This document shows positions 1,745 to 62,310 of a stretch of DNA of 64,000 nucleotides, one piece after another. A program made the position numbers and the translations under genes. The DNA comes from Leucoraja ocellata. Taxonomy: Eukaryota. The stretch lies in the NCBI GenBank assembly GCA_036785375.1, contig JAWMAR010000030.1:7688001-7752000 (forward strand), in the 5' to 3' direction. The stretch's first letter is position 1, and each line of letters starts with the position of its first letter. Below the pieces are notes generated by a model. It saw only the letters and a list, made by a program, of their open reading frames with translations, was not told the DNA's origin and made no database searches.

Positions 1745-2290
1745 GCAGTGAGGAGCACATCTGCCTGAGTCAGAAGGTTACATATTTAATTCTCTCACCA
1801 GAGGAGTGAGCACCAAAATGTCAATTACTCTAAACTGTTAATGTTGAACAGGGTTCCAACCATTTGCTCAGGTGGAGAGGAAAGAACGTTAAAGGTGTAC
1901 TGTTTCAAAGAAGAGCAGGAAAGTCCGGATTGACAGCCTGTCCAACATCAATTAAATCTCACCAAAGGGATTACTTGGCAACTATCACACTCCTGCTTTT
2001 AGCTGTGATTAAGTAGTAGACAATATACACAAAATGTTGGACTAACTCAGCGGGACCGGCAGCATCTCTGGAGAGAAGGAATGGGTGACATTTCCTTCTA
2101 TCAAGATGCTGCCTGTCTTGCTGAGTTACTCCAACATTTTGTGTCTATCTTTGGTTTAGACCAGCATCTGCAGTTCCTTCCTACACATTAAGTAGGCAAT
2201 CATTGTTTCCTCCAACAGTGACAAAAAGTTCTTCAATGTAAAATGCCCTGGGATAAAAGGTGCTATTGAAATGCAAGTCATCTTCCTCTC
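1745..2290 (+). mobile_element. Old SacSINE/DeuSINE-like SINE, interrupted by a Penelope-derived insertion
   Basis: ctgagtcagaaggtt head, tttcaaagaagagcagg core, tail aaggtgctattgaaatgcaagtc; similar to copies at 51945 and 62330. Confidence 0.55.
2017..2186. mobile_element. Penelope-derived fold-back element, centre deleted
   Basis: Inverted arms (acacaaaatgttgga...ctcagc / gctgagttactccaacattttgtgt); 9-bp TSD attaagtag at 2008-2016 and 2187-2195. Confidence 0.75.
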
Positions 2291-4274
2291 CAGGCTGTAA
2301 CCTGATCTTACATCAAGTAGAGTTCTAATCAGAAATAGAAGTGCTGGCTAGCTTCCCCTGCCTTGCCCAGAGCATGAAAGCCAATTGACCCATCCTGTCA
2401 TCACTCCAGCAGAGCTCAGGCTAACTTAGCGCCACGGAGCGAAATCAAACCTCAAGCTTGGCTGGACAGAAACAGCTGAGCCATCACAGAAGCATGTAGG
2501 ACTTTATTGTGAAAGGGTTTTAGATGTGAAATTGGTGACTGGCAGCGATGTGACATCATGATTAAATCAAGGCAGTTTCCTGATCATTGCTTTTTCCAGC
2601 ATTGTATCTTCATCGTAATGAATGAGTGAAATTCGATCTTTGTTAAAAAATAAAGTTTACTACAACTTCTCAAATTTCCAACTAATTGAACAGCAATTGG
2701 GCTTAATCCTGACTTTAATAAGATAATATATGGTTGTAGTCCTACCTGTTCTTTACAGAGACATTAACAAGATTAAAGATTCAGAGTGTTTTTCCAATTA
2801 AGTTCGTTAATTGAAATGTTATATAACAGAAACACTTCTCAAATTATTTCAGCAGATGACTGGCTCATGGGCTAACAAGTCTCACCACAGTATCTAAAGT
2901 CAATTTAAATTTGTTTCATTTAAAGCTATTGAGAAAAAGCAGACCAGTTGTCCTGTTATTTGTTTGTCATTTGTTAAATGCAAAATATGGGAGGGGGTAA
3001 CTCATTGACAAGCTGTTCCTCATTAGTAATGGTTTATCATGCTGCTTTGGATGGCTAACTAAAAAAACAGATGGCTAAACTATGCTGTCACATTGCTGAG
3101 GACCTGACTTAAGCTGATGAGAGAGTGAAAAATACTGTAAATAAATCAATTCTTTATGGTATATTTGAACAGGAAATAACACATCAAAGAAACAAAATAC
3201 TTTCCTATCATCTTTAAAAGGACATTGCCTTTCCTGGCACATTGACATGTCCACTCTTAGCAGTTCCTATATAAGCATGGCCATAGTTGTCAAGGTCTAT
3301 TGAGTTAAGGAAATGCAACTGCAGAGTAAATCTAACCAGGCTCTTTACTGAAATATGGAGAAAAATCTTGCATTTGGCCCTAGCTCATCTATAAAATTAA
3401 TTTAATCATAATTTATAATGCTGGGATATGCAAATAAGAATCATGCCTTCAGCAGTTAATTGATAGACATCTGAACAAGAGTCTCAAATTTGTTCATGTA
3501 TTTTCTGCATATTTTTCAGGACATGGAAAGAGGCCATTCAGCCCATCGAGCCGACTGCAGCTCCCAGAGAATAAAATTAGATTGGTATAGAATTAGTGTA
3601 AACGGGTGCTTGATGCTGGTACAGATATGGTGAGCAAAGGGGCATGTTTACGAGCTGAATTGCTCCAAGTTTCAGGGGGATCTTGCAATCTCCACACAGA
3701 CAGCACTAAAGGTCGGGATCATACTTGGTCCCTGGAGCTGAGAGGCAGCAGCTTTAACAGCTGCACAACCATGCTGTTTAATCTTTTCGGTATTCAATAC
3801 TGAACTATTTACATAAGAGGCTAACATCACTAACGTTAGGAATTTGTAGCACACGTAATTTATCCTCAATGCACCTCGATGTGCAGATGTTTGTTGTCAT
3901 GAAAACTTCAAAGCACCATCAATATCTGAATTTACTGAACAAAAATGTTGGAGGGAATTCCAGAGCTGAGGCCCAGAAAAGCTGAAGACACAGCCGCCAA
4001 CAGTGGAACAATAAGAAAGGGAATGCCGATCAGGCCTGAATTGAAGACGTGCGCAGATTCTGGTAACAACTGCCGTCTATAATGTGCCAGATCGTGCAGC
4101 ATGTAATAATGAAGTATCTGCATCTGCTGGCATGTACCGCAGGCACTCCCAGAATGATGCAGATAAAAATGTCTCACCTTGAGAAAACCAATGATGTTGT
4201 TGGTGGCTCAAGTTGTATCTGTGCCCCCTGCTGTGGCGGGTGAAATCATTAGTATGAAGAGACAGGGGTAATCA

Positions 4275-4293
4275 CCCCCCCCCCCCCCCCCCC
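4275..4293. repeat. poly-C tract
   Basis: Homopolymer run. Confidence 0.9.
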
Positions 4294-4894
4294 AGGAAGC
4301 ATCCCTCAGGGGAGTATCAGTTGCTCAAAGTGTCCAGACCCCCAGAGGTTGAAGGAATCATGCGAAATTCCAGAAAAGATGGCATTCACAATGAGGAGGT
4401 ATTTGCAATGCACAGTCATCTGCACATTGAAGGAGTGGAAACCATTCCTGTCCTGACCTCAGGAAGTAGCTCTGGCACATAAAGGGGAACCCAAATAGGC
4501 CCAAGGCTGTCTAAACATCTTGGAAGCCAGCATTGCTGATAGATCCCAGTGGCAAGGTGCCCCTTCGTCCTTGCTGATATCAAAATGTATGCTCTCATCT
4601 ATCCATGAAATACAAAGCCTTGGTGACCTCTCCTGAGCTGCACTGAGCAGCATTTTGGGAAATGCAACAGAGGTTTGCTGCGGCTACTGGGAAAGATCCA
4701 GTGGCAAGGAAGTTCTGTGTCATCATGACCTTGACCTCCAGGAGAGAACAGTCCTTGCACTGGATTGTTTACATTGATCTTACTACAGAAATCCATGTAT
4801 ATCTATGATGATACATTTGGAAAACCTAAACCTCCAATTACCACAATCACCAACTAAACTTCAAACTACAAATTATTTTGGTTGCACTAGGGAT

Positions 4895-5075
4895 TTCAGA
4901 CTTTTGTTTTGTTTTGTACCACATCTTTAATTGGACTTTTTTGTATGTTTATCATGGTATTTATTGAGCACTGTGCTCTATTGAGTACTGTGGTTACAAA
5001 CTTGTTGTCCTGCTGTATATAAAATGTCACTGTCCATTTTGGTACCTGACAATTAAACACTTTGACTCTTGACTC
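4895..5075 (+). mobile_element. Rex1/Babar-like LINE 3' end
   Basis: tgacaattaaacact-ttgactcttgactc tail shared with 38915-39308 and 58250-58390. Confidence 0.5.
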
Positions 5076-6817: not shown

Positions 6818-6868
6818 AGGAGGGCCACGGGGTCCAATGATTGAGATGCCAGGATCTCCTGGAGCTCC
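6818..6868 (-). CDS. col13a1: Collagen XIII alpha-1 exon, 51 bp: GAPGDPGISIIGPRGPP
   Basis: Acceptor cttctaccatag, donor gtgagt, phase 0/0; matches recalled mammalian COL13A1 GSPGDAGLSIIGPRGPP including the Gly-X-Y imperfection. Confidence 0.9.
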
Positions 6869-7106
6869 CTATGGTAGAAGTGGAAAAGGCAATCAGACAA
6901 TCAGGCCAGGCACCCATAAGAATCCATACAGAGACAGATTATGCTTTATTGTAGATCACCTCTCACTTGTGACGTCGATCCCCTAATCCAACTTGCAACC
7001 AACAGCCGGAATATAGAGACTACCAAGACCTAACCAAGATTAGATCACTGAGTGTCAAATTTAAAGTTCCAGAATGGTCAACTATAATCACAGATGTAGC
7101 ATCCAG

Positions 7107-7255
7107 GGTCATAAGGTCATAAGTAACGGGAGCAAAATTAGGCCATACGGCCCATCAAGCCTATTCTGCTATTTAATCATGGCTGATCTATCTCTCCTTC
7201 CTAACCCCATTCTCCTGCCTTCTCCCCATAACCCCCGACACCCGTACTAATCAGG
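7107..7255 (-). mobile_element. CR1 LINE 3' end fragment
   Basis: (ggtcataa)n tail plus ggcccatcaag...aatcatggctgatct 3' UTR, same as 57011. Confidence 0.7.
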
Positions 7256-10139
7256 AAGTGTGCATTCCATTCAATGTCACATTCACAGTAACAGCCTTTT
7301 GCCCTGATTGTCTTTTGGTGCGTTTTACAGAAAATAGATAGATATGAAATAATTTTAAATTAAAATGCAAACAGGGATGTATCTTTCTTTTGTAATCACA
7401 TCTATATTCTTCATTCTCCTTCTCACCCACTTCCCCTGGTTACTGCTGCACATTATTATTCTCCCAAGAAAATTATGGCAGAGAAATTATTGTTGGGCAA
7501 GCATTATTGTATGCATAGAATTGCATGCTTAGGCACATGAATGCATAGAATAGTTTGGTACACTGAGTATCATCTTCTTTTGCATTTTTTTTTATGGCCC
7601 TGGGGAAGTTACTTTCAATGCCCTGCTGTAACACCACTTTGAATCATACAGCAATAGTGGGGATCAGTGACATAACTCCTTCAGTGAGCGATTGGGGACC
7701 AGACCACTGTCATTTGGTCTTTCTGCCTGGATCAGCACACTAATAATCCAAGCAACTGATTTGTAGCCAAAACCCAGGCAGTTTCTCAGGCCCTCCAAGC
7801 CTACAGATCCCAGATGTTAGCACTTTTACCATCTTCCTATGGAACTGAAGCCACCCCACTTAACACAGTCCAGCAGTTAGAACTAACAACGTATTAGTGT
7901 AATACCATTAAATACATTCTTATCTTAGTCAATGGGAGATCTTGGAAGCTAAGATTTGTATTATAGCTCCTGTAAATCATTGGGAAATTGCAACTCATTT
8001 TACAAAAACTACAATAGCAGGACTATACATGTAATGCACATTAAGTGATTTACATTACCGCAAATAATGGCAAATTATGGAGTGATTTGCAGAATCCTAA
8101 AAGCAAATTGGCATTTTACTTAATTGTGTAACTGAATTGTGCACTCAATATGGAAAAAATATTATTTGCGCTTTAGTACCTCGCTACTATTTACGTGGCC
8201 AAGCATTTTGTCTGTGTCTGGCAGTAAGCTGTGTAAAACCAAACATCCAATAGAGCTTTATGCATATTTTAGGGTAAAAGAATATTTCATGTGTTAAGCA
8301 AAGTAATCTTGATTTCTAGTTATCGGCAAAGAATGCAGCAGGAACATATTGAAGAATTTTAAGGCTGAGTACAGCTGATTGCCGTCAACAGTTTAATTGT
8401 GACCATCAGCCTTCTCGACAGCCTCTTGGAATTCTCCACTTGATGAATCTGACCTCCTACTCTGCTACTGGACCCACCATTAGCCCAGCAATGGAGCACA
8501 GACCTGCCCAGGGGAGGGACCACATGCATTTGGCTTGATCACCAGCCCTCAGTATTATATCAAGGAAGCTTTGTGCATAAAGAGATGGTGTTACCAATTG
8601 TATGGATGAATGCAAGTAGAGTTATGTGAATTAATTGATTCATTTTAATTATTTATTCGTTTTGCAAGGTGTATTTCGTAAAACGTTTACCTTTTGTTAT
8701 TTAGATATTTAAATTTATTTGAACAGTTTTTGAATCTTTATGAGAAAGTTATAAATAGTTCAAAAGTGATGAAAAGGTACAATTGTGGGCAGAACCCCAG
8801 GTTCAGGTTTGTGGTTTGTTCAATGCTTAGAGCTCACTTGAGGTCTATGGACGAGGAGGGTCACCTCATTCCGCCCTACACACCTGGGCAAATCAAGTCC
8901 ACATGGGCACACGGTCCAAGCAGGCAACAGGTCAGGTCAGTTCCTTATGTTGCTAAGATGGAGTCTGAAATGGTGCTTTTAAGAGGAAACAAACATCTGC
9001 ATTTACAATTAACCAGTGTGTCAATGCAAGAACAACCTCGCTTTATATTGTTGCTCTCTTGTGTAAATTGGGGAATGGGCTAAATGTGGTTATAGAAAGA
9101 AAGAGCATCCCATGATGTTTAAAATGCATTAGCCTATCTGGACTTGACTACATTGACTAATGACAACATTAGTTTAATCTACATTTTTCATTGAATTTGG
9201 CAGTGGGCAGTAGTTGACATAAACGGTTGGTAAATAAGTGGATCCATATATTTGGCCACTTCATCATTGTTGTTTGACATGATGGCTGAAAGTGCTTCCG
9301 ATCATCTTTCATTGATTCCTCGTTAGTATTTCTTACTCTGGCTCAATGGAGATGATGTAATTATAAATGACTCAGCCTGTGCAAGGTGCCTGTGCAAGGA
9401 ATATTTGAGCAACTAAACCTCGAAGAGCACTATATTTTGATCATTTAACATGGATTGTTGGGGTCTGCAATTACACTCAATGTGGGTGCAACCCCAGGTC
9501 CTTGCTATTTTTCAACCATGGATCAAAGTAAATAGCAAATAAAGTCTACGAGCGTTTTAGAATCTCATCTAAAGTTCCTTTGAGAAAGGGGAAAAACAAA
9601 GTAGTTATTAGATTTATTTTAATAGCACTTAGAATTCTTGTCTCATTTCCAAAGCAGACTTAAATAATGCATAAATCCCTATCGGTTTGCAGTTTACTCA
9701 ATGAATGGTGGGTCATCATGTTGCATGTTGCTTGACTAGAGAGTAAACCAGGTGCAGCCTTAACTCCTCCAGCTACACTCCCAACTTCAAATTTAGAAAC
9801 CACATGTACAATGTCAGATTCAGGGTTACACACACTGTTCACAGAATTAGTAGATAGTACATTTCCCAAACTTCATAAACTAATGGTAGAAAATGAATGA
9901 GCAGTATTTAAAATAGGTTTAGGTAGCTAGATAAGAAAGGAGAAATGGACCAACTGCTCTTACAGACCATACACTTGAAATATTTATATATACATATATT
10001 AAACATTTACATTTCTTTAATCTAGTTTTCAAGCTGTTGGCAACATCAGCAATTACTAACTTTATCACTTTTAAATATTCTATAAACCTTGTTTGTCAGG
10101 ATACTTAAAATAACTGGCATTTGATTTATCCAGAAATTA

Positions 10140-10750
10140 TCCACACCAATCAATGGGGTGGTTAACATGGCAAGTGAATGTACATGAAAGGGAGGATATC
10201 AAAGGAACAAAGGCACCTTAGAGATCAATAAAAGAGCAGGACAGGCCAATAAGGTGGTTGAAAAGACATGTGGGAAACTTTACTAGCAGAAGCAAAGGGT
10301 ACAAGGGCAGAATAGTTATGCTAGAACTATACACAGTGACAGCTTGGGTACTAATCTGTACAGATCTGTTCACCACATTACAGGAATAAGGCAATCGCAG
10401 GATATGGAGAAGATTTCCGAAGATGTTGCCAGGTCTGGAAAATAGTTGCTGTGGAAAAAGTTTGAATGAAATAAGGTTGATTCCTTTCGAAAAGTAATTG
10501 GGGGAAGACTTAACCGAGAATAAATTATGAGTAATCTAGAAAACGTAGAAAGGCAAGACTTGCTTACCTTAACACAAGGTTCAATAAAAGGGGGCAATCG
10601 ATGTGAAATTTTTGAAGAAGGTTGTTGAAGAAAATCCTTTCATCAAGAGAATGGTTGGTGTCTCAACCAAGTGTCTGAAAGGATGCTCATCACTTTTAAG
10701 CAGAAGAGCAAACGGGCCGAGTGGCCTCTCATGTTTATGATTCTATGAAT
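10140..10750 (+). mobile_element. Highly degraded CR1 LINE 3' fragment
   Basis: Colinear remnants of CR1 ORF2 C-terminus; ends gggccgagtggcct...ttatgattctatga. Confidence 0.6.
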
Positions 10751-12789
10751 TAGATGCTAAACATCCACTGGATATAAATCCTGGGGAAAAGTCTGCTAAG
10801 ATTTCATCATGTTTCATGCAGTCTCAGTTATCCTGTGTTCTTGATTGTACCAGCAATTATTTTAAAGTAGTATTAAATTAATACTACTGAGGCGAGCGAA
10901 AGAGTAAACTTCTTCAGACATCAGCAGTTTGTACGAGGGAGTCTGTAGGACTAGGTATGTAACCAAGTCTCAGTGCTTTCACTAAACTTGAAATAAACAG
11001 AAGAAAATCCTAGCCAACAGTAACAGTTTCACAATTCTGGAATTATGCAAAACACAAAACATTGACATATATATTTCTACGGTTTCCTTATTCCTTACAA
11101 AGATCTTCACTGTAAATCGGTTCGTGTGTCAATAATAAACTTAAACCTAACCTAAACCTACGCCTCTCATGTACAATTGCCCAGAACCCTTGAATTGACT
11201 GTGAGTAGGTGCAGGTTGGTGTGGCAAGTTTTGCTCAACACAGCAGGTTCATTAACAACCACTGACTTGTGAAAATAAAGATTAATCTGTTAATGAGTTG
11301 TGCACCAAACTGTGGGATCATCCACATCTGAGAGAGAGAATCATTGAAAAGAGAGAGCTTCTGTGCACTGCATGTCCTTGCTGTGACAATGTCCTTTGCA
11401 AGCCATTTTCCTGGCAGAATATGGCTTCCACCCATGTACTTGATCTCTGTGATAACAACAAGCTGCAGAAAGGGAGACATCTACAGCAGAAAGTAAGGAT
11501 AATTCAGGCTTGCCTTGATGTCAGTGCAGCTTACGTCAAACTCTTGGCAATGAACCTTTCTTTGCATTAACTGTGACACACTGGGCTATTTTTGAGTAAT
11601 CCTCACTTAGTTACTCTGGGGGCAAGAACATTGCCTTATCGAGAACATACTTCCACTAGGGTGGAATTAATGGTGGCTGGTAGATCAGATTTGACTTTAT
11701 TAGACAGAGTGTGACGTTATGACGACTGCCACGTTTTGGAGTAGGATACGGGAATAGAATTCTACACACACACTTTGAAAATACCAAAAAATAAAGCCAA
11801 AATTAGACTGGCATGTTATGAAGAATTTGTTCCACTTTTTTTTCTACACACTGACCACAATAAATGGACCAACTCAAGGATTGCTGATGGTGTAGAGGAC
11901 CTTATGGATGGTGGCCGCCATTTTGAAGGTGCCTGGTTTCTGAATGGCTTCACTCACTGCACCCATTTTGCTGTCAAAATGTTCTCAAAGGAAATCGCCA
12001 GACCAAACATACCGCTTTTTCCTTTTAAAAATACTAATATATAATTTTTGATTCATGCTGGCTCTATCAAGTTATGGCTGCATTTCACATTTACAATTTT
12101 CTCCTTCAGAATTATTTACAAGGTCCAACTTTAAACGTCATGACAAGTTCTTATGATGGGAGAATGATTACGATATTTAAAACAACACCATTTCTTTTGG
12201 GCCTTAGACTGATTTTACAACTGTCTTTCTCACCTCTCCTCAAAATGGCTCCATTGAGTTGAATCAACAACCGTACAATGATCAGGAACAGATAATTTTG
12301 ACCAAAGAAGGGAAGGTTACCGCAGGGGGAACTTTGATCTTGCCTATCCTTGCATTTCATTATCACCATTGTCTCTCAAATCATCCAGTTGACACTGTAC
12401 TTGCTAACCATCCTCCCACCCCCCAAACCCCCTGGTGCCTTAAATAATGTGAGGGGCCATTTCATCCCCTTTCCCATTGGAGTGAAGTTTGGCATTTAGA
12501 GTTCATCTGGATCCAATATATGTGGATGCAAGAGAGAGAGGAAATGTCATTGCAACCCCAGGATTGCATGAAGGGAATAGGGTTGAAATAAAATTTCTGT
12601 TCAGGGGATATATCAAACATAAAATTTTGATTATATGGAATGTGCAATCCTCAAGGAACAGTCACGGTGTCCACATCAAGGTATTACCCCTCATGCTCAT
12701 ATTAGCATAATAATGTCATGGAACAGAGAAAGTGTCCCACTGTCCATTTAACAATCCTCCACAATCCCATTGTTAGTCTCCCCACATTC

Positions 12790-12990
12790 CAGCAGAATTC
12801 ACCACTCACCTACATACTAGGGGCACTATACGATGGCCAATTAATCCAACCTGCACATTTTTGACTTGTGGGAGGAAACCAAACCAAAGGGTTCAAAAGA
12901 AACCCATGTGGTCACAGTGAACGTGCAAACTCCACATAGACACCATTGGATTGACCACAGGTCAATGAAGCTCTAACTCTACCAACTGCA
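12790..12990 (-). mobile_element. Old HE1/V-SINE-like SINE
   Basis: gtgggaggaaacc...gaaacccatgtggtcacag...acgtgcaaactccaca, reverse complement of SINE body at 45099. Confidence 0.6.
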
Positions 12991-14433
12991 ATACATGCCA
13001 GCCTTCATTTGAAATACTTTGGGAAAAGCTCTAAAGGAACTACAATGCTTTTAATAGTAGTTTGCCTTTTGATCAAAGTAAGGCCACTTTCTTATGCTGC
13101 ATCTCTTTCATATGGTGTCAGTATCAAAAACAGTAGTGGGAGCCACAGTCTCTCCGTGAACAATTGAGTCAGCGTCTCTGTCGCCCCAATCACATTCTTC
13201 ATTGTGCAAAGGGATGAAGCTTTTTAAGAGGTCTTTCAACATCTAATTTTCTCTTCCATAAATTTGTGTTCCACAAATTGTTCTCTCAGGCTAATCCATT
13301 CATCAAGCAATTGCTTATTAAATTATAAATGTTGTCGACCATCTGAGAAGTTCCAATTTCAACGCACGTTGAATTCAAAGGGAACAGTAAGTTAGTAGGA
13401 CAGTGATTTAGTGGCAAAAATCATAGTCTTAATACATCGTGCTATGTAGGGGTCAGTGTTAAAGTTACTTCTTCATTTGGAGAAACAGCTTTACTTTGGA
13501 AAAGTTGTAAAACATTTTTTGGAACAAAAAATTGAATAGCTATTGAAAGGAAAAGAAGTGTGTGGAACAAAAGGGAAAACCAAGTAATCAGGGAACTGAT
13601 TTGGCAAGTTTTCTTTACAAATTGGAAACAATGTCTGCAACCAAAGGTGATTTGCAGTCATGAAGAAACCACTTCCTGAAAATTAAATGAGCAAGATTCA
13701 CTTTGTCCTCCAAGGGCACAATGTGCATGAGGGATGCAGTGAATGATCAGATCTTCTTAAAGAGATTGATGAACTGTAATCACTGCCAGAAGGTCACATA
13801 CTGAGGGGGAATTCACTGGAAATGGAAAGGAAACACAATGGAATTCAGAACGCAACATTTAGGAACATGTTGTTGATGGAAAAGTAAATGGCAAAAGTAC
13901 TGAGCTGCCAAGTCTGGCCTGAAGGAGCAATCAAAGGGAAATGAGATAGTCCTGAGCACAACTTTGGTGGGAGGTCTTCAGTAGAAAATGTTGTTCATTG
14001 ACCGTAGCTGAATTATATTTACCTACTAGGCCATGAGAATGGGGGAAAGGGCACTGAACAAAATGGTAAAAACAAAACTTGATTTCATTTTGTTTTGTTT
14101 ATCTAACTGAAAGATTGTAAAGAATAAGTTCTAGCGAAGTTCCAATCATTACCTAATGAAGTATGATTACACAAAGTAGTTGCTCCAGTGACAACTAATT
14201 AGGTGTGTTACTGACTCCAGAACTATATTCTCAATTATATTCACTTATTTTTATTTCCACTGCACTTAAACCACAAAACCAGTGCCACACTAAAACCACC
14301 GCAATTTTTAGATTAAACAGAATGAAGTGTCCGTTCTACTCAATGGTCACTCGAACAAGTATTTAGAGGTACTATTAACTTACTACTGGAAATACAAATG
14401 AGGGTCAATGTTCCCTTTCCTTGCATGACTCAC

Positions 14434-14460
14434 CTCGTCACCAGGTTCCCCCTTTAGACC
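14434..14460 (-). CDS. col13a1: Collagen XIII exon, 27 bp: GLKGEPGDE
   Basis: Acceptor gactgcccag, donor gtgagt, three Gly-X-Y triplets; resembles recalled COL13A1 G(V/I)KGQPGEK exon. Confidence 0.85.
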
Positions 14461-14956
14461 CTGGGCAGTCACAGCAAACACAGCATGCAGAAGTAAAGGA
14501 GAGACACAAATAGAGGATTAGTATTAGACCAACAAAAGTACTTATCAGCATCTTTATAAAGCGACCTTCTTAAAGTCATCAGGAGCCAGAGTCTGCAACT
14601 GTGCATCAGACCACACTCAAGCAATAAGCAAGCAGCAGAGCAAGAGATTACACCTTTAATAATCTTCAGGTCTAGACTGAGTGAAATAAGTTGCTTTTAG
14701 CAAGAGAAAAATATCATAAAGATGAATTCCGCAGTCAAAAGCAAACATTCCAGGGATGAAAATTTAGTATTCCAATACTAGATCCCCATTGAATCTTATG
14801 AGATTTGGCTCCACATTGTCACTGGTGATGATCAAGGACCAAGGGGGCACTCCAGTTCTAACCAGGATTGGACCTTTGAATGGGTGAATGAGGAGAGGGG
14901 AAAGCAGGCTTGGGTCTATCAACCACACGACAATTGAATCCATTCAGAATCTTTAG

Positions 14957-15033
14957 TGTGACCCGCTGAGTTACTCCAACATTTTGTGACTGTCTTCGGC
15001 GTAAACCAGCATCTTCAGTTCCTTCCTACACAT
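14957..15033 (+). mobile_element. Short Penelope-derived terminal repeat fragment
   Basis: gacccgctgagttactcc...cagcatcttcagttccttcctacac; 11-bp TSD agaatctttag at 14946-14956 and 15034-15044. Confidence 0.75.
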
Positions 15034-17079
15034 AGAATCTTTAGACTACTGTCCCCACAATTTGTGTCCACAGAATGCAATGAGCATCTAGTAAAACAAA
15101 CCTACTACTGGCTGCTACTGGTTCAGGCTATGGCTGGGACGTGCCTTGCTATTTGGGCTACTAAATAATCAGAAATACCACATGTTATCCTTTAAAGTAG
15201 CAAGTATTATCTTTATAAAGTGGGGATTGTATCACCATTTCCCACATGGCCCATTCCAGAGTAATTCTTCTTTTTTTTCCTCTGTGTGTACACTGTTCTG
15301 CTGTACTACAAAGGTGGAGAGTAAGGCACAGAGAGATCGAGAAGGATTAAGGTCTTGTAGTACCAAAGGACCTATCTGTGGGAGGATGGGAGAACGGCAA
15401 ATAGAAACAACATCTCTTTTTAGCACAGCTTAAACTTCTGATCAGAACCAGCTGGGACGTATTCTCCACCGTCCATGGAAAAGATTGCAAACCATTAATC
15501 CACCTGAATATTAAGCGACAGGACAGGGGCAAAAAAAAAATGTTTTAAATTGCTGCATGCCTGTGGACCAAACTCCCGTTGAGCAATTCGTATTGAATTG
15601 CCTCAAAACTCTTCATACACAAAGAGTTATTCTGAGGTGTATGTTATTGAGACCCAACAGTCATGCTATGTATACAAGGACCAACCAACAGTAATTGACA
15701 GGATGAATGAGCTGCTAATTGTTATTTTAGTTGTGCTGGCTGTTGGAGGAAACTTGACTAGAATGAGACTGGATTCTGATTACGCTCAAATATTCCATTG
15801 AAGTCTTTGAATATTTACCATCAGGCTATTAAATACTTCAACCTCCATATATGCTCTGAACTACATAGACTTGGGGGCATTGGTTTCGTCTTTTTGACCT
15901 CTCTATAGATGCTGCTTATCCATTGAGTTACTTTTGTGTTCAATATTTAAGCATCTGAAATCTTTAAATCTCCAGAATGATTGATGGAGGTGAAATACTC
16001 TTCAAATCCACAATATAATGGACTTCTCCACTCCTTTCTCACATATTTGTGTATGTTCTGGTTTCCTCCCTTAACCCAGTAATGTACTGGCTGGTCACTC
16101 TAAGATGCTCCCAGTGCAAGTGGGTGGAAGGACAATCAGGGTGGAGTAGATGGCCTTGCGAGAGAGAATAGGTTGTACACATACGAGATTTGGAATAAGA
16201 TTGATGAGGTTGCTGTAAGAGCCAGCCTCAACCTAATGAGTTGAATAACTGTATCCATGTCGCATGGGAGATATGAAAAATAAATCCATTAATGTTATCT
16301 TGTAATGTTACCTGACATAAAATCTCATAATGTGAATTGATGCAAAGTTCTACTTGATAGCAGTGCTATGAAGTGCTTTGGGATAAATTATGTTAAAAGT
16401 TGTTAAAATAAATGTGTGAGAGGTTGGAGAAGCTTGTGAGTTCTTTCTGAATGGGTAAACTAGGATGGAACAAATGGCTTCCTCCATTCTTAATTACCTC
16501 AGATATTATGGCCTATATTCATCCTCAGTAGAACAAAGCTTCACCCCAATGCCTCCAATTATTTTGATAATATATCAAACTCAGGGGAAGATCCACTGTA
16601 CCATTGGCCTCCATTATTAAGCTATATACCTCATAATGAAGTAATCAAATGAATCACCTAGGCCTAAAATATCTTAATTTTGATTAATTTGAAATGCCTT
16701 GAGATATTTTATTGCAGTAACGATTTTACAGGTCATTGCAGTTGATATGTGTAAGTCCCAAACCTGCCCTTTGCAGCTCTGTAGAGTTTGTGAAACATTC
16801 CATGATCTGTTAAAGTTAAAACTGCTCACATCTTTGCACTACATGCCAACAGTAATAAGCACACAGCCAAAACAAACTCCAATGTAAAACAAAGTTAGCT
16901 ATAGCCATGCTCAAAAAGCACATGTTGTAACATTATAGATGGGGGAGGGCCTGAAAATCAGTTTCATCAGTTTGGACTGTGCCAGATTCACACAGTGAAC
17001 TAAGCATATTGTTAGTTTTTTTCGTTTTTAAAAATCTAAACTTTCCTGTGGTTTTCCAGGGGACAACATGGGGAAAAGG

Positions 17080-17715
17080 TTTGAGCAGGCAGTGAAGAAA
17101 GCTAATAGCTTGTTGGCCTTCATTGCACGAGGATTTGAGTTTAGGAGCATGGAGGTCCTACTGCAGTTGTACAGGGCCCTGGTGAGACCATACCTGGAGT
17201 ATTGAGTGCAATTTTGGTCTCCTAATTTGATGAAGGACATTATTGCTATTGAGGGAGTGCAGCGTAGGTTCACCAGGTTAATTCCCGGGATGACTGGACT
17301 GACATATGATGAAAGAATGGGTCAACTGGGCTTGTATTCACTGGAATTTAAAAGAGGGGGTCTTATAGAAACATATAACATTCTTAAAGGATTGGACAGA
17401 CTAGATGCAGGAAAAATGTTCCCAATGTTGGGTAGTCCAGAACCAGGGGTCACTGTTTAAGAATAAGGGGTAGGCCATTTAGGACTGAGATGAGGAAAAA
17501 TGTCGTCATCCAGAGAGTTGTGAATCTGTGGAATTCTCTGCCACAGAAGGCAGTGGAGGACAATTCACTGGATGTTTTCAAGAGAGTTAGATTTAGCTCT
17601 TACGGCTAAAGGTATTAAGATACTAATTTTAGACATTATCATATTGAAAGGCAGTGTTGGCTCGAAGGGCCGAATGGCCTACTTCTGCACCTAATTTCTA
17701 TTTTCTATATTTCTA
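17080..17715 (+). mobile_element. CR1 LINE 3' fragment (ORF2 C-terminus, 3' UTR, tail)
   Basis: QFWSPNLMKDIIAIEGVQRRFTRLIPGM...GLYSLE; (tttcta)n tail. Confidence 0.9.
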
Positions 17716-17828
17716 AGGTCTATGGGCACTCACATGGGCCCCAGCTATGCCTGCCCCTTTGTAGGGTACGTCAAACAATCCCTGTTCCAGGTATACACTG
17801 GTCCTGCCCCCGGACTCTACCTCCGCTC
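17716..17828 (+). mobile_element. Penelope-like element reverse transcriptase fragment
   Basis: MGTHMGPSYACPFVGYVKQSLF...LYLR resembles the PLE RT motif AMGxxMGPSYA..F preceding RYIDD. Confidence 0.75.
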
Positions 17829-20058
17829 TCTGGCTCATGTAAACAAGGTTAGGTACAAAGCCTATCTATCCCCCATGTGTGTTGGTGTTCCCGGTTTCCT
17901 AGTTATAGATGCCAGGAAGTCCCAAGCAAGGTGCTAAACTTTGTTCATATAATAAAACTCAACCAATATTTGCTACCCAACCAAAACATAAATAGTTAAA
18001 AATCTACCTTGAAAGACAATGCAAAATGGCCTGTTAGCTTTTTTTAGCATCCCTTGAAATGAGTGCCCACCATTTGAGCAATGGGGAAACCAGTGCAACA
18101 TAAATCTACCCACACAGATGACTGATTATCTCTTCGAAGCATCCAAGTCCCGGAAGATTTTTAATACGTTCACAGAACAGTGATGTTACTGGCACGGCAA
18201 ACATTATCCCTCGTCAAACCCTACAATGTAAATCTCTCTTCCAGTAAATACATTTCAGATTACAGTTTTGCCTTTGACTAATGGGGAATATTTTTCTTCA
18301 TCAGGTAGTTCATTTTATTGGTCATGTTCTATAAAATAATGCATGATAGCATACGTTAACAGCGGGGGCAGCATGAACAAAGCCTTTGTTTGTTTCTATC
18401 CTTTTGAGGTGGGGGTCCAGTCACTGAGAAATGAGTGCAGTTATGGACTTACTTAAACAAGAAAAACAAAGCAGAGTAAATGCTCCTAATTACAGGAAGC
18501 GTGCTGTGAGCACTTCCTTGTGCCGAGAAAGTGACCCAAAACAAGAAAGACTTAGGGACCTTTCAAAGTCATCTTTCTAAATAAAAGTGCAATTAGCACA
18601 AAGTCTTTCGGTCTATTGCAAGAATGGCTGGAACAATGTTTGTCCACACACTGGGGTTTAATAGTGGCAGCCTAACCTTGGATGCTTAGTTGATTCCCCT
18701 TGGAATTTCCCCATTTAAAGAGCTGGAGAAATAACAATCGCTAATAACAGTTAACAGTCTTTCAGCCCACACACAGTTGAAACTGATGTCCGTTTTAAGT
18801 AAGAAGAGAGTTAAAGTGGGTTTGCTTATTGTTGCGAAATAGCAACACTGTGATAAATGTATTTTGTCAACTCAGGTATTCCTAGCCCCTTTAATTATGT
18901 TTTAAAAATATTAAAATACAGACCAGAAGCATGACAATTAGGTAAGCCAAAGCATTTCCACATCAGTGAGTCAAAGCTTTAAAGAGGCTGTTCGTTGTTA
19001 GGAACTACCCACATTGTGACTACTTTGAACTATATAGACTTTTCTGAGATATGTGCTCAGAATAATAATTAAAATCAAATTATTTTACACATATGTTTAT
19101 AGATAAATCCTTTATATCATTTTCTGTGTCTTTTCATTTTAGAATTAATCCTAAACTTAGAAAAGTTTGCATGGCAGCATTAAGGAAAGTCAGGGATATC
19201 AACATCAATGCTGTAAACGTCAAGCTAGTAAATGCTCCCAATGAATGAGTCTGCAATGTTGGTTTAGGTACTGATGGGTTTACTGTATATGGTTTTGTAT
19301 GGGGAAAGATGTTCACCAAACAGCCCATTTAACTAACCATTGCTTCAAAAGCCAAGCGTTTCAATGCAACAGAGGTAGCACATTTTAAAATAAATTGCAT
19401 CAGAACTCCAAACAGCACAGCAATAAACCTCATGAATGCAACAAAAGCCTCATCCAACAAAGAACTTAACGTAAGGTCTCCGTTACATTCATCTTAAAAT
19501 GTAAAGTATATGCACTGTAATTCACAGCACTGGCTGAAATGCTCCATGCTCCATGCAAAATGGAGCCAAAGCAATGTGCAAAATGCTCTCAAGAAATGTG
19601 CAGTTAAGTATGGTACTGTCAAATAAATGGTTTAAGGCTGCATTATCCTGAAGCTGAAACAGAATTAAATGACCTGTGCAATGTCACTTTAACTAAAGGC
19701 TTTTATCTCCATAAACCAGATGTTGTTCTGACCTTTTTCTGAAATGTTTACGCAGTGGCTCCCTTGAGAGAAAAAGACACTTCCAAAAATGGTGCCTTGT
19801 TCTTGCTGCAGAGGTTACACACAGGCACAAATGTGCACTAGTTAAAAGATAAAGTAGTTCAAATCAATTTGATTTCAGTCGGAAAGGTGGAGGGTGGACG
19901 AGGAAGGTAAGGGGAAGGATACTGCAGCTTTAAATTATTTTTCTTTGACACTTCATTTACAAACAGTTGAAATGATGGTTCATTGTGCCTTCAGTGCAAG
20001 ATAAGCATCAGGTCTATGTCACCACACGGCTAAAATGAGATGCAATAAGTAAACTTAC

Positions 20059-37260: not shown

Positions 37261-37277
37261 CACCACACCTTCCATGA

Positions 37278-42612: not shown

Positions 42613-44029
42613 TGGAACTAACTGTTGATGGGGCATCTTGCTCGGCATGGCCAAGTAGGGCCGAAGGGCCTGTTTCCCTGTGGTATGACCAAATTACTAT
42701 TAACAAACAAGATATCATTCGGTTTCTACAAAACTCTTGATTAACTATGCTCATCTATTCATCCCCAGCAACCCTTCAGACCTGTAACCCTGATCACTTC
42801 AAAAACAAAAATATCAAAAACTAAGAAGTAGTATAAAGTTTCTACCAGATCCTGATGGCAAGCATTTGTAAAGCAATCTCTGGCAAACATGAACTGATAT
42901 CGAACATGCTTGTTCCAGACATGCTTTATACACTGGAGCTTCTTCAGTGTGTGAACTCTCACCTAATTTGTCTCAATTCATCTTGGCCTTGCTGGAAGTC
43001 TACAGTATTCCCGAAACAATCAGAATAACGTATGTTTGTTTTAACCTGGTGACAAAGCACACACTTTCCTTTCACAAGATGTGCAAGTTCACATTCCTTG
43101 TGTGAAAAGTACCCCCTGCCACCAGAGATATTTAAGCTTGTAGATCAGCCTAGTTCAAATGCATACTGCCTCCAGTGAAACATGCATTTGCTATGATCAG
43201 CTTAACAAAAATAACTTTTCAACATTGCTGTGACCCTCATTCTGTGGCTTTGTTGCACCACACGAGGCCAAGTGTCCCTAATGTGTTCTCACGTCACATG
43301 AAAAGGAAACGTTTGACAGGCGTCAAAGTATCCAGGCACTCGACCAACGAACGGTGAAAAGAGCCAAAGATCCCGTCGAGATCAATGCAAAGTTATGCTG
43401 AAAGTACAGAGTTAAGGTTTAAAAACAGCTCAAAACTTAAACTGAGTTGGTTCGTATCAAGTGTCATTTCAGTTTCCTTTTATTGACTAAGCTTCAACAG
43501 CTTTTTTTAAAGTTTCCTTTTCAGTCTGTCTTTAATCGATGTGTACAAGTAATAACAACTCAGAATGTTAAAATGAATTTTGCGCTCTCCCCCTCTTCCC
43601 CACTTGAAATAGGCCATGATTGCTTCTGGCCCCTGCCACTATGAAGAAACCATATGTGTTTAGCCAGACAGAGCGATATGCAACAACAGTCACTCATGGA
43701 AGATTACTGGGGAAGGTCTGAAGTCCTGTTCAAAATGCAATTGAAGTGGTTACAGCAAATTATGTTTGCGAGTGGAAGGGCAATCATAATCGCACAAGAT
43801 AAACTGTGGCCTAATGATACATAGCAAGATCCAATGTGAGACCTTTTATAACTTCCTGAACAGTCAGTTTACTGCTTTTTGCAAAAGATTACACTTCTGA
43901 CAAAATAGGACTTCGGTACTGGGAAGAAGTATATTCTTAATTGTGATGACGAATCTCCCTCGATTCATTCAATTGTCCACCATAACTTCACAAGAGAGGC
44001 CACGTGAGCCCAGGCTAAAGGCAATCTAG

Positions 44030-44275
44030 TGTCGGAAGGAACTGCAGATGCTGGTTCACGCTGAAGATAGACACAAATAGCTGGAGTAACTCAATGTCAG
44101 GCAGTATCTCTGGAGAAAAGGAATAGGTGACGTTTCATGTCGGAACCCTCCACCTTTAGTAGTCCCTCACCCCTAACTCTCAGTCTGATGAAGGTTTCGA
44201 CCTGAAATGTCGCCTATTCCTTTTCTCTGGAGATGCTGCCTGACCCGCTGTATTACTCCAGCATTTTGTGTCTAC
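44030..44275. mobile_element. Penelope-derived fold-back element
   Basis: Inverted arms around a CT-rich spacer, with core ctgatgaaggtttcgacctgaaatgtc. Confidence 0.75.
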
Positions 44276-44805
44276 CATAAAGCTCCTTTGGGTTGGATTC
44301 TTGCAAAACAACCAGATTTAAATGGTTTATTTTTAACACAATCACAAAACCACAATTATAGCTTTCTGAACTTAACATTTACACCTAATGTGCTGTTTTT
44401 CAAAGCAGAAAGATTTTCAAAGTACCATTGATATGTAAAATAAGAAACTGATACATGTAGGTAATATAGCTAAAACTATTGCTGCTGGTGAAGAGATATT
44501 GCAGGTGCTGTCAGCTTGCAATCCAAGTTATTTTATAGGATGCAAGGGTGTGTGAAAAAAGCATTACCCTAATTTAAGAGTTACCCATAATGTGCTGAGG
44601 GATATCAATTGTTGAAGGCATCCTCTCAATGGCAGCTCAATGCTTTAAATGTATTTTACTGCTCCCATGAAAGAGAATAAGGCCCAAGGGACAAGGAACT
44701 TGCAAACTGGAGAGCCCTGGATATAGTGGATGAGGCATGGAGGTTCTATGAGAGCTCATGCGTGTCAATGAGATAGAGGTGAGGGAAGTGATGGCAGGGA
44801 CACAG

Positions 44806-47285: not shown

Positions 47286-48382
47286 TGGAAAAGAACTGCA
47301 GATGCTGGTTTAAGTCAAAGATAGACACAATATTTTGGATAATGAAGTAGATTTTCAAAGTCTACAGAGAGATTTATGCCAGTTGGAAGAGTGGACTGAA
47401 AGATGGCAGATGGAGTTTAATGCTGATAAGTGTGAGGTGCTACATCTTGGCAGGACAAATCAAAATAGGACGTACATGGTAAATGGTAGGGAATTGAAGA
47501 ATGCAGGTGAACAGAGGGATCTGGGAATAACTGTGCACAGTTCCCTGAAAGTGGAATCTCATGTAGATAGGGTGGTAAAGAAAGCTTTTGGTGTGCTGGC
47601 CTTTATAAATCAGAGCATTGAGTATAGAAGTTGGGATGTAATGTTAAAATTGAACAAGGCATTGGTGAGGCCAATTCTGGAGTATGGGGTACAATTTTGG
47701 TCGCCTAATTATAGGAAGGATGTCAACAAAATAGAGAGAGTACAGAGGAGATTTACTAGAATGTTGCCTGGGTTTCAGCAACTAAGTTACAGAGAAAGGT
47801 TGAACAAGTTAGGGCTTTATTCTTTGGAGCGCAGAAGGTTAAGGGGGGACTTGATAGAGGTCTTTAAAATGATGAGAGGGATAGACAGAGTTGACGTGAA
47901 TAAGCTTTTCCCACTGAGAGGAGGGAAGATGCAAACAAGGGGACATGACTTGAGAATTAAGGGACGGAAGTTTAGGGGTAACATGAGGGGGAACTTCTTT
48001 ACTCAGAGAGTGGTGGCTGTGTGGAATGAGCTTCCAGTGATGGTGGTGGAGGCAGGTTCGTTTTTATCATTTAAAAATAAATTGGATAGTTATATGGACG
48101 AGAAAGGAATGGAGGGTTATGGTCTGAGCGCAGGTATATGGGACTAGGGGGGAATACGTGTTCGGCACGGACTAGAAGGGTCGAGATGGCCTGTTTCCGT
48201 GCTGTAATTGTTATATGGTTATATTATATGGTTAAAATGCCAGAGTAACTCAGCTGGACAGGCAGCATCTCTCGAGAGTAGGAATGGGAGACGTCTGAAG
48301 ACGGGTCTGGACCTGAAACGTCACCCATTCCCACTCTCCAGAGATGCTGCCTGAGCTGCTGGGTTACTCCGGCATTTTGTGT
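47286..48382. mobile_element. Penelope-derived fold-back element split by a CR1 insertion
   Basis: Left arm gatagacacaa| resumes at |aaaatgccagagtaactcagc; TSD ctggcttc(t/c)atgtg. Confidence 0.75.
47331..48233 (+). mobile_element. Young 5'-truncated CR1 LINE with uninterrupted 270-codon ORF2 C-terminus
   Basis: ORF 47335..48147 (WQMEFNADKCEVLHLG, RPILEYGVQFWSP, FFTQRVVAVWNELP); (ttatatgg)n tail. Confidence 0.95.
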
Positions 48383-48971: not shown

Positions 48972-49103
48972 TGTAGGAAAGAACTGCAGATGCTGGTTTA
49001 AATCAAAGGTAGACACAAAATGCTGGAGTAACTCAATGGGACAGGCAGCATCTCTGGAGAGAAGGAATGGGCGACTTTTCGGGTCGAGGCCCTTCTTCAG
49101 ACA
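48972..49103 (-). mobile_element. Penelope-derived terminal repeat (single arm)
   Basis: gtaggaaagaactgcagatgctgg...gggtcgaggcccttcttcagac. Confidence 0.75.
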
Positions 49104-50622: not shown

Positions 50623-50949
50623 GGTAGACACAAAATGCTGGAGTAACTCAGTGGGACAGGCAGCATTTCTGGAGAGAAGGAATGGGTGACGTTTCGGGTT
50701 GCGACTCTTCTTCAGACTGATGTCAGGGAAGTGGGCGGGTCAGAGATATGGAATGTAGTCGGAGACAGTGAACATTGACTTCTCTAACTTCAAATAGCTC
50801 TTGCTTTCCCTCTCTCTCCATCCCCTTCACCTTCCCAGTTCTCCCACCAGTCTTACTGTCTCTCCATAGATACTGCCTGTCCTGCTGAGTTATTCCGGCA
50901 TTTTGTGTCTACCTTTGATTTAAACCAGCATCTGCAGTTCTTTCCTACA
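50623..50949. mobile_element. Penelope-derived fold-back element retaining the ORF end
   Basis: 11-bp TSD catagggatct at 50612-50622 and 50950-50960; 50771-50797 encodes NIDFSNFK* (PLE C-terminus). Confidence 0.8.
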
Positions 50950-51787: not shown

Positions 51788-51873
51788 GAAGGCTCTCGAC
51801 ACGAAACGTCACCCATTCCTTCTCTCCAATGCTGCCTGTCCCGCTGAGTTACTCCAACATTTTGTGTCCATCT
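51788..51873 (+). mobile_element. Short Penelope-derived repeat
   Basis: gaaggctctcgacacgaaacgtcacc...; TSD aactt(t/c)aggatgaa. Confidence 0.7.
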
Positions 51874-60800: not shown

Positions 60801-61022
60801 GAAGGTAGACACAAAATGCTGGAGTAACTCAGCGGGACAGGCAGCATCTCTGGGGAGAAGGAATGGGTGATGTTTCGGGTCGAGACCCTTCTTCAGACTG
60901 AAGGGACTCGACCCGAAATGTCACCCATTCCTTCTTTCCAGAGATGCTGCCTGTCTCGCTGAGCTACTCTAGCATTTTGTGTCTACCTTCGATTTAAATC
61001 AGCATCCGCAGTTCTTTCCTAC
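60801..61022. mobile_element. Penelope-derived fold-back element
   Basis: ~95-bp inverted arms; 16-bp TSD acagctgttagcaaac at 60785-60800 and 61023-61038. Confidence 0.85.
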
Positions 61023-61197: not shown

Positions 61198-61335
61198 ATA
61201 CACAAAAATGCTGGAGAAACTCAGCGGGTGCAGCAGCCGAATTTCCTTCGCTCCATAGATGCTGCTGCACCCGCTGAGTTTCTCCAGCATTTTTGTGTAC
61301 CTTCAATTTTCCAGCATCTGCAGTTCCTTCTTAAA
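61198..61335. mobile_element. Young-subfamily Penelope-derived fold-back element, centre deleted
   Basis: Same subfamily as 42379; 13-bp TSD catcattagaggg at 61185-61197 and 61336-61348. Confidence 0.85.
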
Positions 61336-61357
61336 CATCATTAGAGGGGTAATGGAT

Positions 61358-61638
61358 TTCAGTTCAGTTTAGTTTATTGTCACGTGTACCGAGGTACGGC
61401 GAAAAGCTTTTGTTGTGTGCTGTCGGGTCAGCAGATGAAACATGATTACAATCGAGCCATTTACAGCGTATAGATACATGAAAAGGGAATAACGTTTAGT
61501 GCAAGGTAAAGCCAGCAAAGTCTGATCCAGGATAGTCCAAAGGATCACCGAAGAGGTAGATAGTAATTCAGCACTGCTCTCTGGTTGTGGTAGGATGATT
61601 CAGTTGCCTGGGGAAAAAAAAACTGTCCTGGAATCTGG
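61358..61638 (-). mobile_element. Rex1-related LINE 3' end
   Basis: ttcagttcagtttagtttattgtcacgtgtaccgaggtac...; ends with aaactgtcctggaatctgg. Confidence 0.6.
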
Positions 61639-62119
61639 GCAGTATTTAGGGCAAGAATACAAATCACCTATAGTCCGAGTTAGCAAGAGGCCTTTTAATT
61701 AGTTATGTATTTCATAAATTTCATATTTTGTATGTATTTCATAAATGGGGTGATGCATTTTCCTAGATAACCTCTCCCTTGGTAAGTGTGTGGACCGAAT
61801 TAATAATGTTAAATGAGTAGGATTAATGCGAGTGGTCCAAGAGCTGACACGAACTGGATGGGCCAAATGGCCTTCTGTGCAATAATGCAGTATAGGAACT
61901 ATGGAATGAATTTCATTAAATGCAGACACGTATTCTAGACCAATGATTACCAGCATTTTGAAACATGTTTCCAGTTCATTCTCTAGTCTTTAGCAATAAA
62001 TTTTCTTTTAATTTTGAGCATTTTTTGTTTAATCCAACAACATGTGTTTCTGTGAGTAAAACAATAACAAGTTTCTGTAACTCCAGTGCTTAGTGAAGAA
62101 CAGGATCTATTCTGTCAGC

Positions 62120-62310
62120 TAAAAAATAAAGTGCTGGAAGAGCCCAGTGGGTCAGACAACATCTGTGGAGAAAAATCGCCAGACAACATTTTGGGTCAGG
62201 ACCTTCCTTCAGACGAACCAAGACGTTGTTTGTCCATTTCCCTCCGCAGCTCCGCCTGACCTGCTGACTTTTTCCAGATTGTTTTTTACTAAAGATTCCA
62301 GCATCTGCGG
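62120..62310. mobile_element. Older Penelope-derived fold-back element
   Basis: Diverged inverted arms, gattccagcatctgc end. Confidence 0.6.

What the first reader, a model, noticed from the sequence alone, without database searches (positions are those of the whole stretch)
2008..62310. Family of short hammerhead-carrying, self-complementary Penelope-derived insertions with long TSDs
Seen: over a dozen copies of one ~130-bp unit, many as tail-to-tail fold-backs (2017, 22621, 42379, 44030, 47286, 50623, 60801, 61198, 62120). Most are bounded by their own 9-16-bp TSD, so they are independent insertions. Intact units carry CTGAAGA-stemII-GAAAC-GT(C/T), and stem II varies while staying paired (gggtctcgaccc, gggtttcggccc, gggtcccgaccc). 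Established: Penelope-like elements carry minimal hammerhead motifs in their terminal repeats and often insert with inverted repeats. Inference: these may be non-autonomous, retrozyme-like units in at least two subfamilies, placing hammerhead cores and long dsRNA hairpins in the collagen pre-mRNA.
Basis: partly seen in the sequence, partly recalled or inferred. Interest (0 to 1): 0.7.

Follow-up and report, generated by a model that had tools for sequence, protein, structure and literature searches.

The report
Penelope leader stubs, not retrozymes
These short, often mirror-image inserts in a collagen gene's introns are stubs of a known jumping gene (a Penelope-like retrotransposon) carrying a mostly decayed minimal ribozyme motif, and their sharp ends likely record the element copying only the front of its own RNA, from both sides of the DNA cut.

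Summary
Real but mostly known. A 98%-identical duplicate of the region has a clean empty site for 42379, so both arms arrived together. The unit is the terminal repeat of an RT + GIY-YIG Penelope-like element: it follows the ORF stop and also forms the leader before the ORF. In 1.32 Mb of systematically sampled genome (622 arms), 259 of 345 arms reaching the hammerhead stop at its front edge, 2-4 nt before CUGA, at an initiator-like TCAGT; the rest form a truncation continuum beyond 1.6 kb. 35 of 36 TSD-bounded pairs carry the tail on one arm only. Retrozyme features fail: no tandem hammerhead units in the window, no 5' ends at the cleavage site, no compensatory stem II change, helix I only 2 bp, and the recurrent seam re-forms in four subfamilies. 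Best reading: run-off copies of the RNA leader with both target strands primed (inferred). The scan noted this layout and front-edge stop before, in this genome and others.

The parts
2017..2186 (.). Head-to-head fold-back, short left arm + tailed right arm, no hammerhead core; TSD 2008-2016 / 2187-2195
   Evidence: also present in duplicate region
14957..15033 (+). Single 5'-truncated tailed arm; TSD 14946-14956 / 15034-15044
22621..22882 (.). Fold-back, tailed left arm + short right arm with ~43-nt spacer; TSD 22608-22620 / 22883-22895; left part deleted in the duplicate region
23905..23995 (-). Single short arm starting at the core; stem II damaged; no TSD found
26839..26927 (-). Single short arm, old subfamily D; A-rich 12-bp repeat on both sides (tentative TSD)
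27915..28009 (+). Decayed single arm (weaker fragments also at 15899-15932, 27614-27690, 28729-28807)
28450..28605 (.).
37279..37374 (+). Single short arm, family A, core mutated
38806..38888 (+). Single short arm, family C, core deleted by 3 nt
40751..40826 (+). Single arm starting 2 nt before the core, 3' end cut
42379..42612 (.). Youngest fold-back (family B), arms identical over ~100 bp, both cores intact (42518 +, 42504 -); TSD 42365-42378 / 42613-42626; clean empty site in the duplicate region
44027..44277 (.). Fold-back (family A2); right arm carries a short piece of upstream 3' UTR; no TSD found
47286..48382 (.). One fold-back split by a later LINE 3' end (about 47329-48233); TSD 47272-47285 / 48383-48396; core at 48295 + intact
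48973..49102 (-). Single tailed arm starting 2 nt before the core; stem II mismatch
50623..50949 (.). Longer fold-back: left arm runs into the 3' UTR; right arm starts in the last codons of the endonuclease ORF (stop near 50797), has an internal deletion of the hammerhead and ends in the tail; TSD 50612-50622 / 50950-50960
   Evidence: ORF end matches EN-bearing loci
51788..51873 (+). Single short arm; TSD 51774-51787 / 51874-51887 overlapping the core front
60801..61022 (.). Fold-back (family A) joined at the core front through the quasi-palindrome; TSD 60785-60800 / 61023-61038
61198..61335 (.). Asymmetric fold-back (family B) without core; TSD 61185-61197 / 61336-61348
62124..62314 (.). Old fold-back of subfamily D; no TSD above threshold
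6842..24851 (-). Host gene: Gly-X-Y exons at 24851, 20778, 20094, 14460, 6868; more exons below the window and an RxxR/CxCPP exon 46 kb above it, so every unit is intronic. Transmembrane collagen of type XIII/XXIII/XXV (name recalled, not searched)

Best explanation
The units are insertion stubs of an autonomous Penelope-like retrotransposon, made of its terminal repeat, and most are likely run-off copies of the first ~95-135 nt of the element's RNA. Shown: the unit lies both right after the ORF stop plus 3' UTR and right before the ORF start; it has two fixed 3' ends; three quarters of arms that reach the hammerhead stop 2-4 nt before it; pairs carry one long and one short end between one 13-15-bp TSD and arrive in one event. 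Inferred: the element's protein nicks both target strands; both 3'-OH ends prime reverse transcription at two internal sites ~37 nt apart on the RNA; when priming is on the 5' leader the cDNA runs off the RNA's 5' end (predicted transcription start at the A of an initiator-like TCAGT), when it is on the 3' repeat it runs into the ORF and truncates at random; the two cDNAs are joined by microhomology, often at a small quasi-palindrome at the core front. The hammerhead motif is a passenger: it would have at most 2-3 bp of helix I, leaves no trace at its cleavage site, and in fold-backs is predicted to be buried in the hairpin.
For: Identity: upstream of the unit lie a GIY-YIG C-terminus and RT (Pfam GIY-YIG E 0.0017 and RVT_1 E 0.008, both below cut-off; 19 longer homologs, 14 with RVT_1). 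Downstream it continues ~45 nt to the ORF start in 6 long copies shown, one of which (L176) begins at the core front. Discrete 5' end: 259 of 345 core-reaching arms stop there, 0 of 259 have UTR homology after masking neighbours, 58 of the other 86 do; templated fraction 0.84 at -2, 0.51 at -3, 0.24-0.26 at -4, 0.12-0.13 at -5 (n = 80 and 105); TSD-defined starts lie between -10 and +4 in 26 of 45 singles. TCAGT is kept across subfamilies whose UTRs differ. Two-strand priming: TSD in 36 of 93 pairs (null 2.7%), 35 of 36 with exactly one long end, none long+long; empty site; same-family arms in 36 of 41 typed pairs, 12.8 expected; L053 has a 22-nt short arm joined to a 2.55-kb arm, which self-copying at a hairpin cannot give. 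In vitro a lizard PLE extends both strands, starts RT at two internal sites and does not need ribozyme cleavage (PMC11167929).
Against: No RNA 5'-end data: only contigs were available. The edge is spread over 3-4 nt, and the test for an extra cap-derived G was not significant (11 of 25, p 0.06; 7 of 19, p 0.16). The same TCAGT follows a pyrimidine tract and also reads as a splice acceptor. Two thirds of sites are single arms (286 of 429 groups), and hidden tiny partner arms were found in only 12 of 272 (control 2). In the lizard assay the RT start site did not differ between strands, whereas pairs here are strictly long + short. 5 of 41 typed pairs looked mixed-family (typing is crude). Sample is from large contigs at fixed offsets.
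Confidence: 0.7

Rival explanations
1. Non-autonomous retrozyme-like elements: short RNAs processed by their hammerhead, circularised or hairpin-shaped, and mobilised in trans as units.
For: Very high copy number (622 arms in 1.32 Mb), a discrete size class, some recurrent seams (6 + 3 pairs). Short pLTR-derived tandem retrozymes are reported in one cartilaginous fish (bioRxiv 10.64898/2026.07.22.740005). Solo pLTRs can mobilise in trans (PMC3846280).
Against: 5' ends are not at the cleavage site: 9 of 270 inner starts at model 35-39, below the ~3.4 per nt average; 0 of 45 TSD-defined starts at the site. No tandem hammerhead units in the window. Same seam in families A, B, C, D. Short and long copies share clusters. 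Helix I 2 bp; no compensatory change.
Confidence: 0.08
2. All copies start at the 3' repeat; the front edge is a strong RT pause or drop-off site at the entry to the pyrimidine/poly-C tract (structure or bound protein), not the RNA's start.
For: The edge lies just where the pyrimidine-rich UTR begins in every subfamily; ends are spread over several nt; needs no second template position.
Against: Long copies exist that begin at or inside the unit and run into the ORF (L164, L176, L189), as expected if the RNA starts there; an initiator-like motif sits at the edge; once past the edge, truncation is slow and smooth through the tract.
Confidence: 0.15
3. The edge is a 3' splice site (as the Drosophila virilis intron ends at helix I), and short copies come from spliced RNA.
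For: Pyrimidine tract + CAG directly before the core; the same coincidence is reported for D. virilis (PMC4209133).
Against: No shared exon upstream: bases become random beyond -4; none of 30 endonuclease-bearing copies shows a spliced junction; no GT..AG joint among those listed for the two putative RNA runs (list cut, contigs only).
Confidence: 0.04
4. Fold-backs arise by self-priming or hairpin self-copying of one cDNA (Arkhipova's antisense self-priming model), not by priming from both target strands.
For: Palindromic seams and identical arms in the youngest copy; proposed for rotifer PLEs (PMC3846280).
Against: Strongly asymmetric pairs (L053, window 50623 and 61198) where the second arm is not the mirror of sequence at the seam; the short end also terminates single arms with their own TSD.
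Confidence: 0.12

Closest known systems
Canonical EN+ Penelope-like insertion: pLTR, adjacent inverted 5'-truncated copy, one-sided 30-40-bp tail, TSD (Adineta Pen2a_Av, PMC3846280, passages read; Craig et al., bioRxiv 10.1101/2021.04.23.441226, passages read)
   Same: Head-to-head inverted arms, tail on one end, TSD, initiator-like motif in the pLTR, Zn-finger-like linker of Neptune/Nematis type.
   Different: Most inserts here are only the 95-135-nt leader with no ORF, at an extrapolated 1.6 million arms, and three quarters of core-reaching arms share one 5' edge; TSD mode 13-15 bp.
Poseidon PLE of the green anole, PAc (PMC11167929, parts 1-2 of 4 read; supplements searched, no hits)
   Same: Two internal RT start sites that define the tail, ~100-135 nt behind the hammerhead; both strands cut and extended; no sign that cleaved RNA is the template.
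   Different: Here the start sites lie in a 5' leader before the ATG, the clade looks Neptune-like, and pairs use one site each.
Minimal type I hammerheads of metazoan PLEs (PMC4209133, parts 1-2 of 4 read)
   Same: Core boxes, extra A before stem II, G-C closing pair, palindromic helix III stub; copies in opposite strands 100-700 bp apart were already noted.
   Different: Stem II 4-5 bp and helix I only 2 bp (as in the D. virilis variant, not the usual 4-5 bp); most copies decayed.
Metazoan non-LTR retrozymes (PMC7229834, passages read; bioRxiv 10.64898/2026.07.22.740005, parts 1-3 of 5 read, supplements not seen)
   Same: Short, non-coding, pLTR-related, type I hammerhead motif.
   Different: Retrozymes are head-to-tail tandems with a hammerhead in each unit, cleave and circularise; these are dispersed singles or head-to-head pairs whose ends ignore the cleavage site.

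Membership tests
EN+ Penelope-like element (parent) | Single ORF with RT and C-terminal GIY-YIG endonuclease | tested here: met
   Pfam scores on broken copies are below cut-off, homologs carry both domains
EN+ Penelope-like element (parent) | pLTR: same sequence after the ORF and before the ORF, partial tandems | tested here: met
   (L171 is a partial tandem)
EN+ Penelope-like element (parent) | Inverted 5'-truncated copy, one-sided 30-40-bp tail, variable TSD | tested here: met
Neptune/Nematis clade | Zn-finger motif in the RT-EN linker | tested here: met
   Cys-x4-Cys-x2-Cys motif; criterion
Neptune/Nematis clade | RT phylogenetic placement | not tested
   no tree built; no named reference RTs on hand
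Minimal type I hammerhead | Core boxes, stem II, palindromic 15.2-16.2 | tested here: met
   44 of 345 core-reaching arms intact; 3 arms in the window
Minimal type I hammerhead | Helix I of 4-5 bp | tested here: not met
   pairs 1 and 2 formed in 88-89% of 74 arms, pairs 3 and 4 in 5-8%; a 2-bp variant is described for D. virilis
Minimal type I hammerhead | Compensatory changes in the stems | tested here: not met
   only U-A/U.G one-sided changes among 7 clusters
Minimal type I hammerhead | Self-cleavage as dimer or with the PLE protein | not testable with these tools
   needs an assay
Non-LTR retrozyme | Head-to-tail tandem of at least two units, each with a hammerhead | tested here: not met
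   none in the window; the 66-bp arrays elsewhere lack the CUGA box; same-strand groups in the sample were not all inspected
Non-LTR retrozyme | Unit ends set by ribozyme cleavage | tested here: not met
Non-LTR retrozyme | Own lineage separate from the autonomous element | tested here: not met
   short and UTR-bearing copies fall in all 7 clusters; seam recurs across families
Non-LTR retrozyme | Abundant circular RNA | not testable with these tools
   only contigs of putative RNA runs

The most novel reading that the evidence does not exclude
Hundreds of thousands of inserts in this fish genome are 'strong-stop' products of a Penelope-like element: one RNA leader read from two fixed internal sites by two enzymes primed on opposite strands of a 13-15-nt staggered cut, each running off a transcription start 3 nt before the hammerhead. 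That would fix the RNA's 5' end, explain the one-sided tail and head-to-head inversions of PLEs, and show that the hammerhead sits at the cap with too short a helix I to cleave unaided.
Probability: 0.45. Interest if true: 0.5.

Novelty: new member of a known kind. Interest (0 to 1): 0.3.

Why it matters
As a new retrozyme class it does not hold. Its value is as a very large natural record of how Penelope-like elements insert, a mechanism that the papers read call unresolved: the strict long + short pairing, the empty site and the sharp 5' edge give concrete predictions for a 5'-end mapping and for the existing in vitro assay. About 245,000 head-to-head pairs (extrapolated from 94 in 1.32 Mb) would also be a large source of intronic dsRNA in this lineage, though nothing here shows editing or a host function.

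Tried and rejected
Rfam: no hammerhead family among 20 matches up to E 10; matches were generic hairpins below gathering scores. Folding single units gave no stability above shuffles (z -0.94 to +1.05, 5 sequences). RNA: no RNA holder listed; contigs of two putative RNA runs and one other run cannot show starts, strand or circles, and show no informative joint. Cap-G test not significant. First UTR-homology control (90 of 259) was an artefact of neighbouring inverted arms; after masking 0 of 259. Apparent shared upstream word in the top hits was query bias and vanished in the systematic sample. PDB sequence search with an RT fragment found nothing. Several apparent 5' extensions of the ORF were pieces captured in another repeat. 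Within-pair identity did not separate one-RNA from two-RNA models (12 of 60 pairs at least as close as the best of ~120 other arms). Literature searches found no paper on skate PLE stubs or a run-off class; the library lacks most subscription journals and Repbase, so this is weak. A further 200 kb of genome sample could not be had, so the census rests on 1.32 Mb.
Full report
1. Observation. Self-comparison and a profile from natural copies find 33 arms in 22 groups in the window; the same profile gives 0 hits on reversed sequence. Two groups belong together, so there are 21 sites, 10 of them fold-backs. Arms point outward: relative to the element's sense they are head-to-head (94 such pairs against 7 tail-to-tail among 429 groups in the genome sample). 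The window (G000:C30:7688001-7752000, genome 3.44 Gb) lies wholly in introns of a minus-strand collagen gene: Gly-X-Y exons inside and below it, and an RxxR/CxCPP exon 46 kb above it. The label transmembrane collagen XIII/XXIII/XXV and the reading 'cartilaginous fish' are recalled or inferred, not searched.

2. A natural control. The region is duplicated at about 98% identity on the same contig. There the fold-back 42379-42612 is absent and the 14-bp target stands once: both arms came in one event and the TSD is real. The fold-back at 47286 is intact there and split by a LINE in the window. Whether the duplicate is a haplotype or a paralogue is not known.

3. What the unit is. Upstream of some copies lie a pyrimidine-rich 3' UTR and the C-terminus of a GIY-YIG endonuclease (141,522 first-look candidates for this peptide), then RT. 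Nineteen longer homologs were found, 14 with RVT_1. The linker has a Zn-finger-like motif, the Neptune/Nematis mark named in Craig et al.; no tree was built. Walking upstream shows the same unit in front of the ORF: it continues past the tail about 45 nt to the first ATG. L171 is a partial tandem and L176 starts at the hammerhead front. So the unit is the pLTR and the 5' leader of an autonomous element. L053 is a 2.55-kb ORF-bearing copy with the layout of the short inserts: 16-bp TSD, a 22-nt inverted short arm, long arm ending in the tail. Window 50623 reaches the last codons of the ORF.

4. Census. I took 132 stretches of 10 kb at fixed offsets of large contigs (1.32 Mb). They hold 622 arms (471/Mb; window 516/Mb), extrapolating to about 1.6 million arms and 245,000 pairs. 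3' ends cluster at two sites. TSDs were found in 36 of 93 usable pairs (null 2.7%), mode 13-15 bp; 35 of 36 have exactly one long end, none has two. TSDs were found in 45 of 215 singles (null 1.9%). Of 615 usable arms, 270 start inside the unit, 345 reach the core; 259 of these stop there and 86 have pyrimidine-rich upstream sequence, extending smoothly to more than 1.6 kb. After masking neighbours, 0 of 259 and 58 of 86 match a UTR; an unmasked first try gave 90 of 259. For stop arms without a 5' neighbour the templated fraction is 0.84, 0.51, 0.24-0.26 and 0.12-0.13 at -2 to -5 (n = 80 sampled, 105 with other loci, duplicates removed). The edge thus centres on the A of TCAGT, a word kept across subfamilies that fits the initiator consensus (recalled); initiator-like and internal promoter motifs are reported in PLE repeats (PMC3846280, PMC2377424; passages). 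So both things are true: a discrete class and a continuum.

5. The hammerhead. The motif matches the published minimal PLE hammerhead (PMC4209133); Rfam does not detect it. 44 of 345 arms are intact, 3 in the window. Among 300 arms in 7 clusters, stem II shows no double change, only U-A/U.G and loop changes, and helix I is 2 bp. 5' ends avoid no site but show no peak at the cleavage point: 9 of 270 inner starts at model 35-39, and 0 of 45 TSD-defined starts. This agrees with the lizard study, where cleavage was not needed and no reads ended at the site. On the collagen strand the only fully intact core (42504) lies in a 100-bp hairpin, and in any head-to-head pair the antisense arm is transcribed first, so it is predicted to be blocked.

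6. Do fold-backs move as units? 94 pairs give 83 junction classes. The commonest seam lies at a quasi-palindrome at the core front and occurs in families A, B, C and D, so it re-forms at insertion. Arms are of the same family in 36 of 41 typed pairs (12.8 expected). Short and UTR-bearing copies share all clusters. A small propagating sub-lineage cannot be excluded from 1.32 Mb.

7. Mechanism. Shown: geometry, one-event arrival, two 3' sites, sharp 5' edge, continuum. From PMC11167929: both strands are cut and extended and RT starts at two internal sites that define the tail. Inferred: both nicks prime, one at each site; priming on the leader runs off the RNA start, priming on the 3' repeat truncates at random; microhomology joins the cDNAs. 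Against: no RNA 5'-end data, no significant cap-G signal, many true singles.

8. Relation to what is known. The layout is the canonical PLE insertion unit; opposite-strand minimal hammerheads 100-700 bp apart were noted in 2014. Retrozymes are tandem, cleave and circularise; the testable features fail here. Searches found no paper on a run-off class or on skate PLE stubs. Earlier notes of this scan report the same layout, twin priming and front-edge stop in this and other genomes; I tested these claims independently and add the empty site, the per-base edge at the initiator-like word, and the leader position before the ATG.

9. Verdict. Observation largely right, retrozyme reading not supported. 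New member of a known kind; interest 0.3.

Noticed in passing
L103:391-658 and 1367-1720; L105:586-877 and 4668-4949; L028:344-611; L027; L010; L023; L174: Family C forms short head-to-tail arrays of a 66-bp piece with one shared junction at unrelated loci (20-21 junctions in 5-6 of 133 stretches). The piece has the GAAAC side but not the CUGA box; one array sits inside a UTR-bearing copy. Likely a master with an internal tandem or RT reiteration; the nearest thing to a retrozyme seen. L085 has a 54-bp period.
   Followed up: partly
G000:C30:5574000-5638000 (L231-L238): Inverted ~98%-identical duplicate of the whole window, 2.1 Mb away on the same contig, with several presence/absence differences; many other loci also came in near-identical pairs, so haplotypes may be retained in the assembly.
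   Followed up: partly
L133, L136, L138, L142, L147, L154, L156: A different repeat with a fixed GC-rich end (resembles a DNA-transposon terminus, recalled) has captured pieces of the PLE ORF's N-terminal region and spread with them.
   Followed up: no
window 47329-48233, 32403-33023, 33342-33782, 34114-34500: 3' parts of LINEs (CR1-type by recalled motifs); the one at 47329 is absent from the duplicate region and landed inside a Penelope fold-back.
   Followed up: partly
L147, L149, L156 (ORF N-terminal region): The PLE ORF has a variable Pro/Ala-rich tandem repeat (about 30-bp units) upstream of the RT.
   Followed up: no
L164, L171, L188, L189, at the ORF start: The first ATG of the ORF lies in a context that also reads as a splice donor.
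   Followed up: no
window 22570-22747, 51789-51804, 61238-61247, 50858: Deletions inside or beside units, in the window or in the duplicate, several within fold-backs; may reflect hairpin instability.
   Followed up: no
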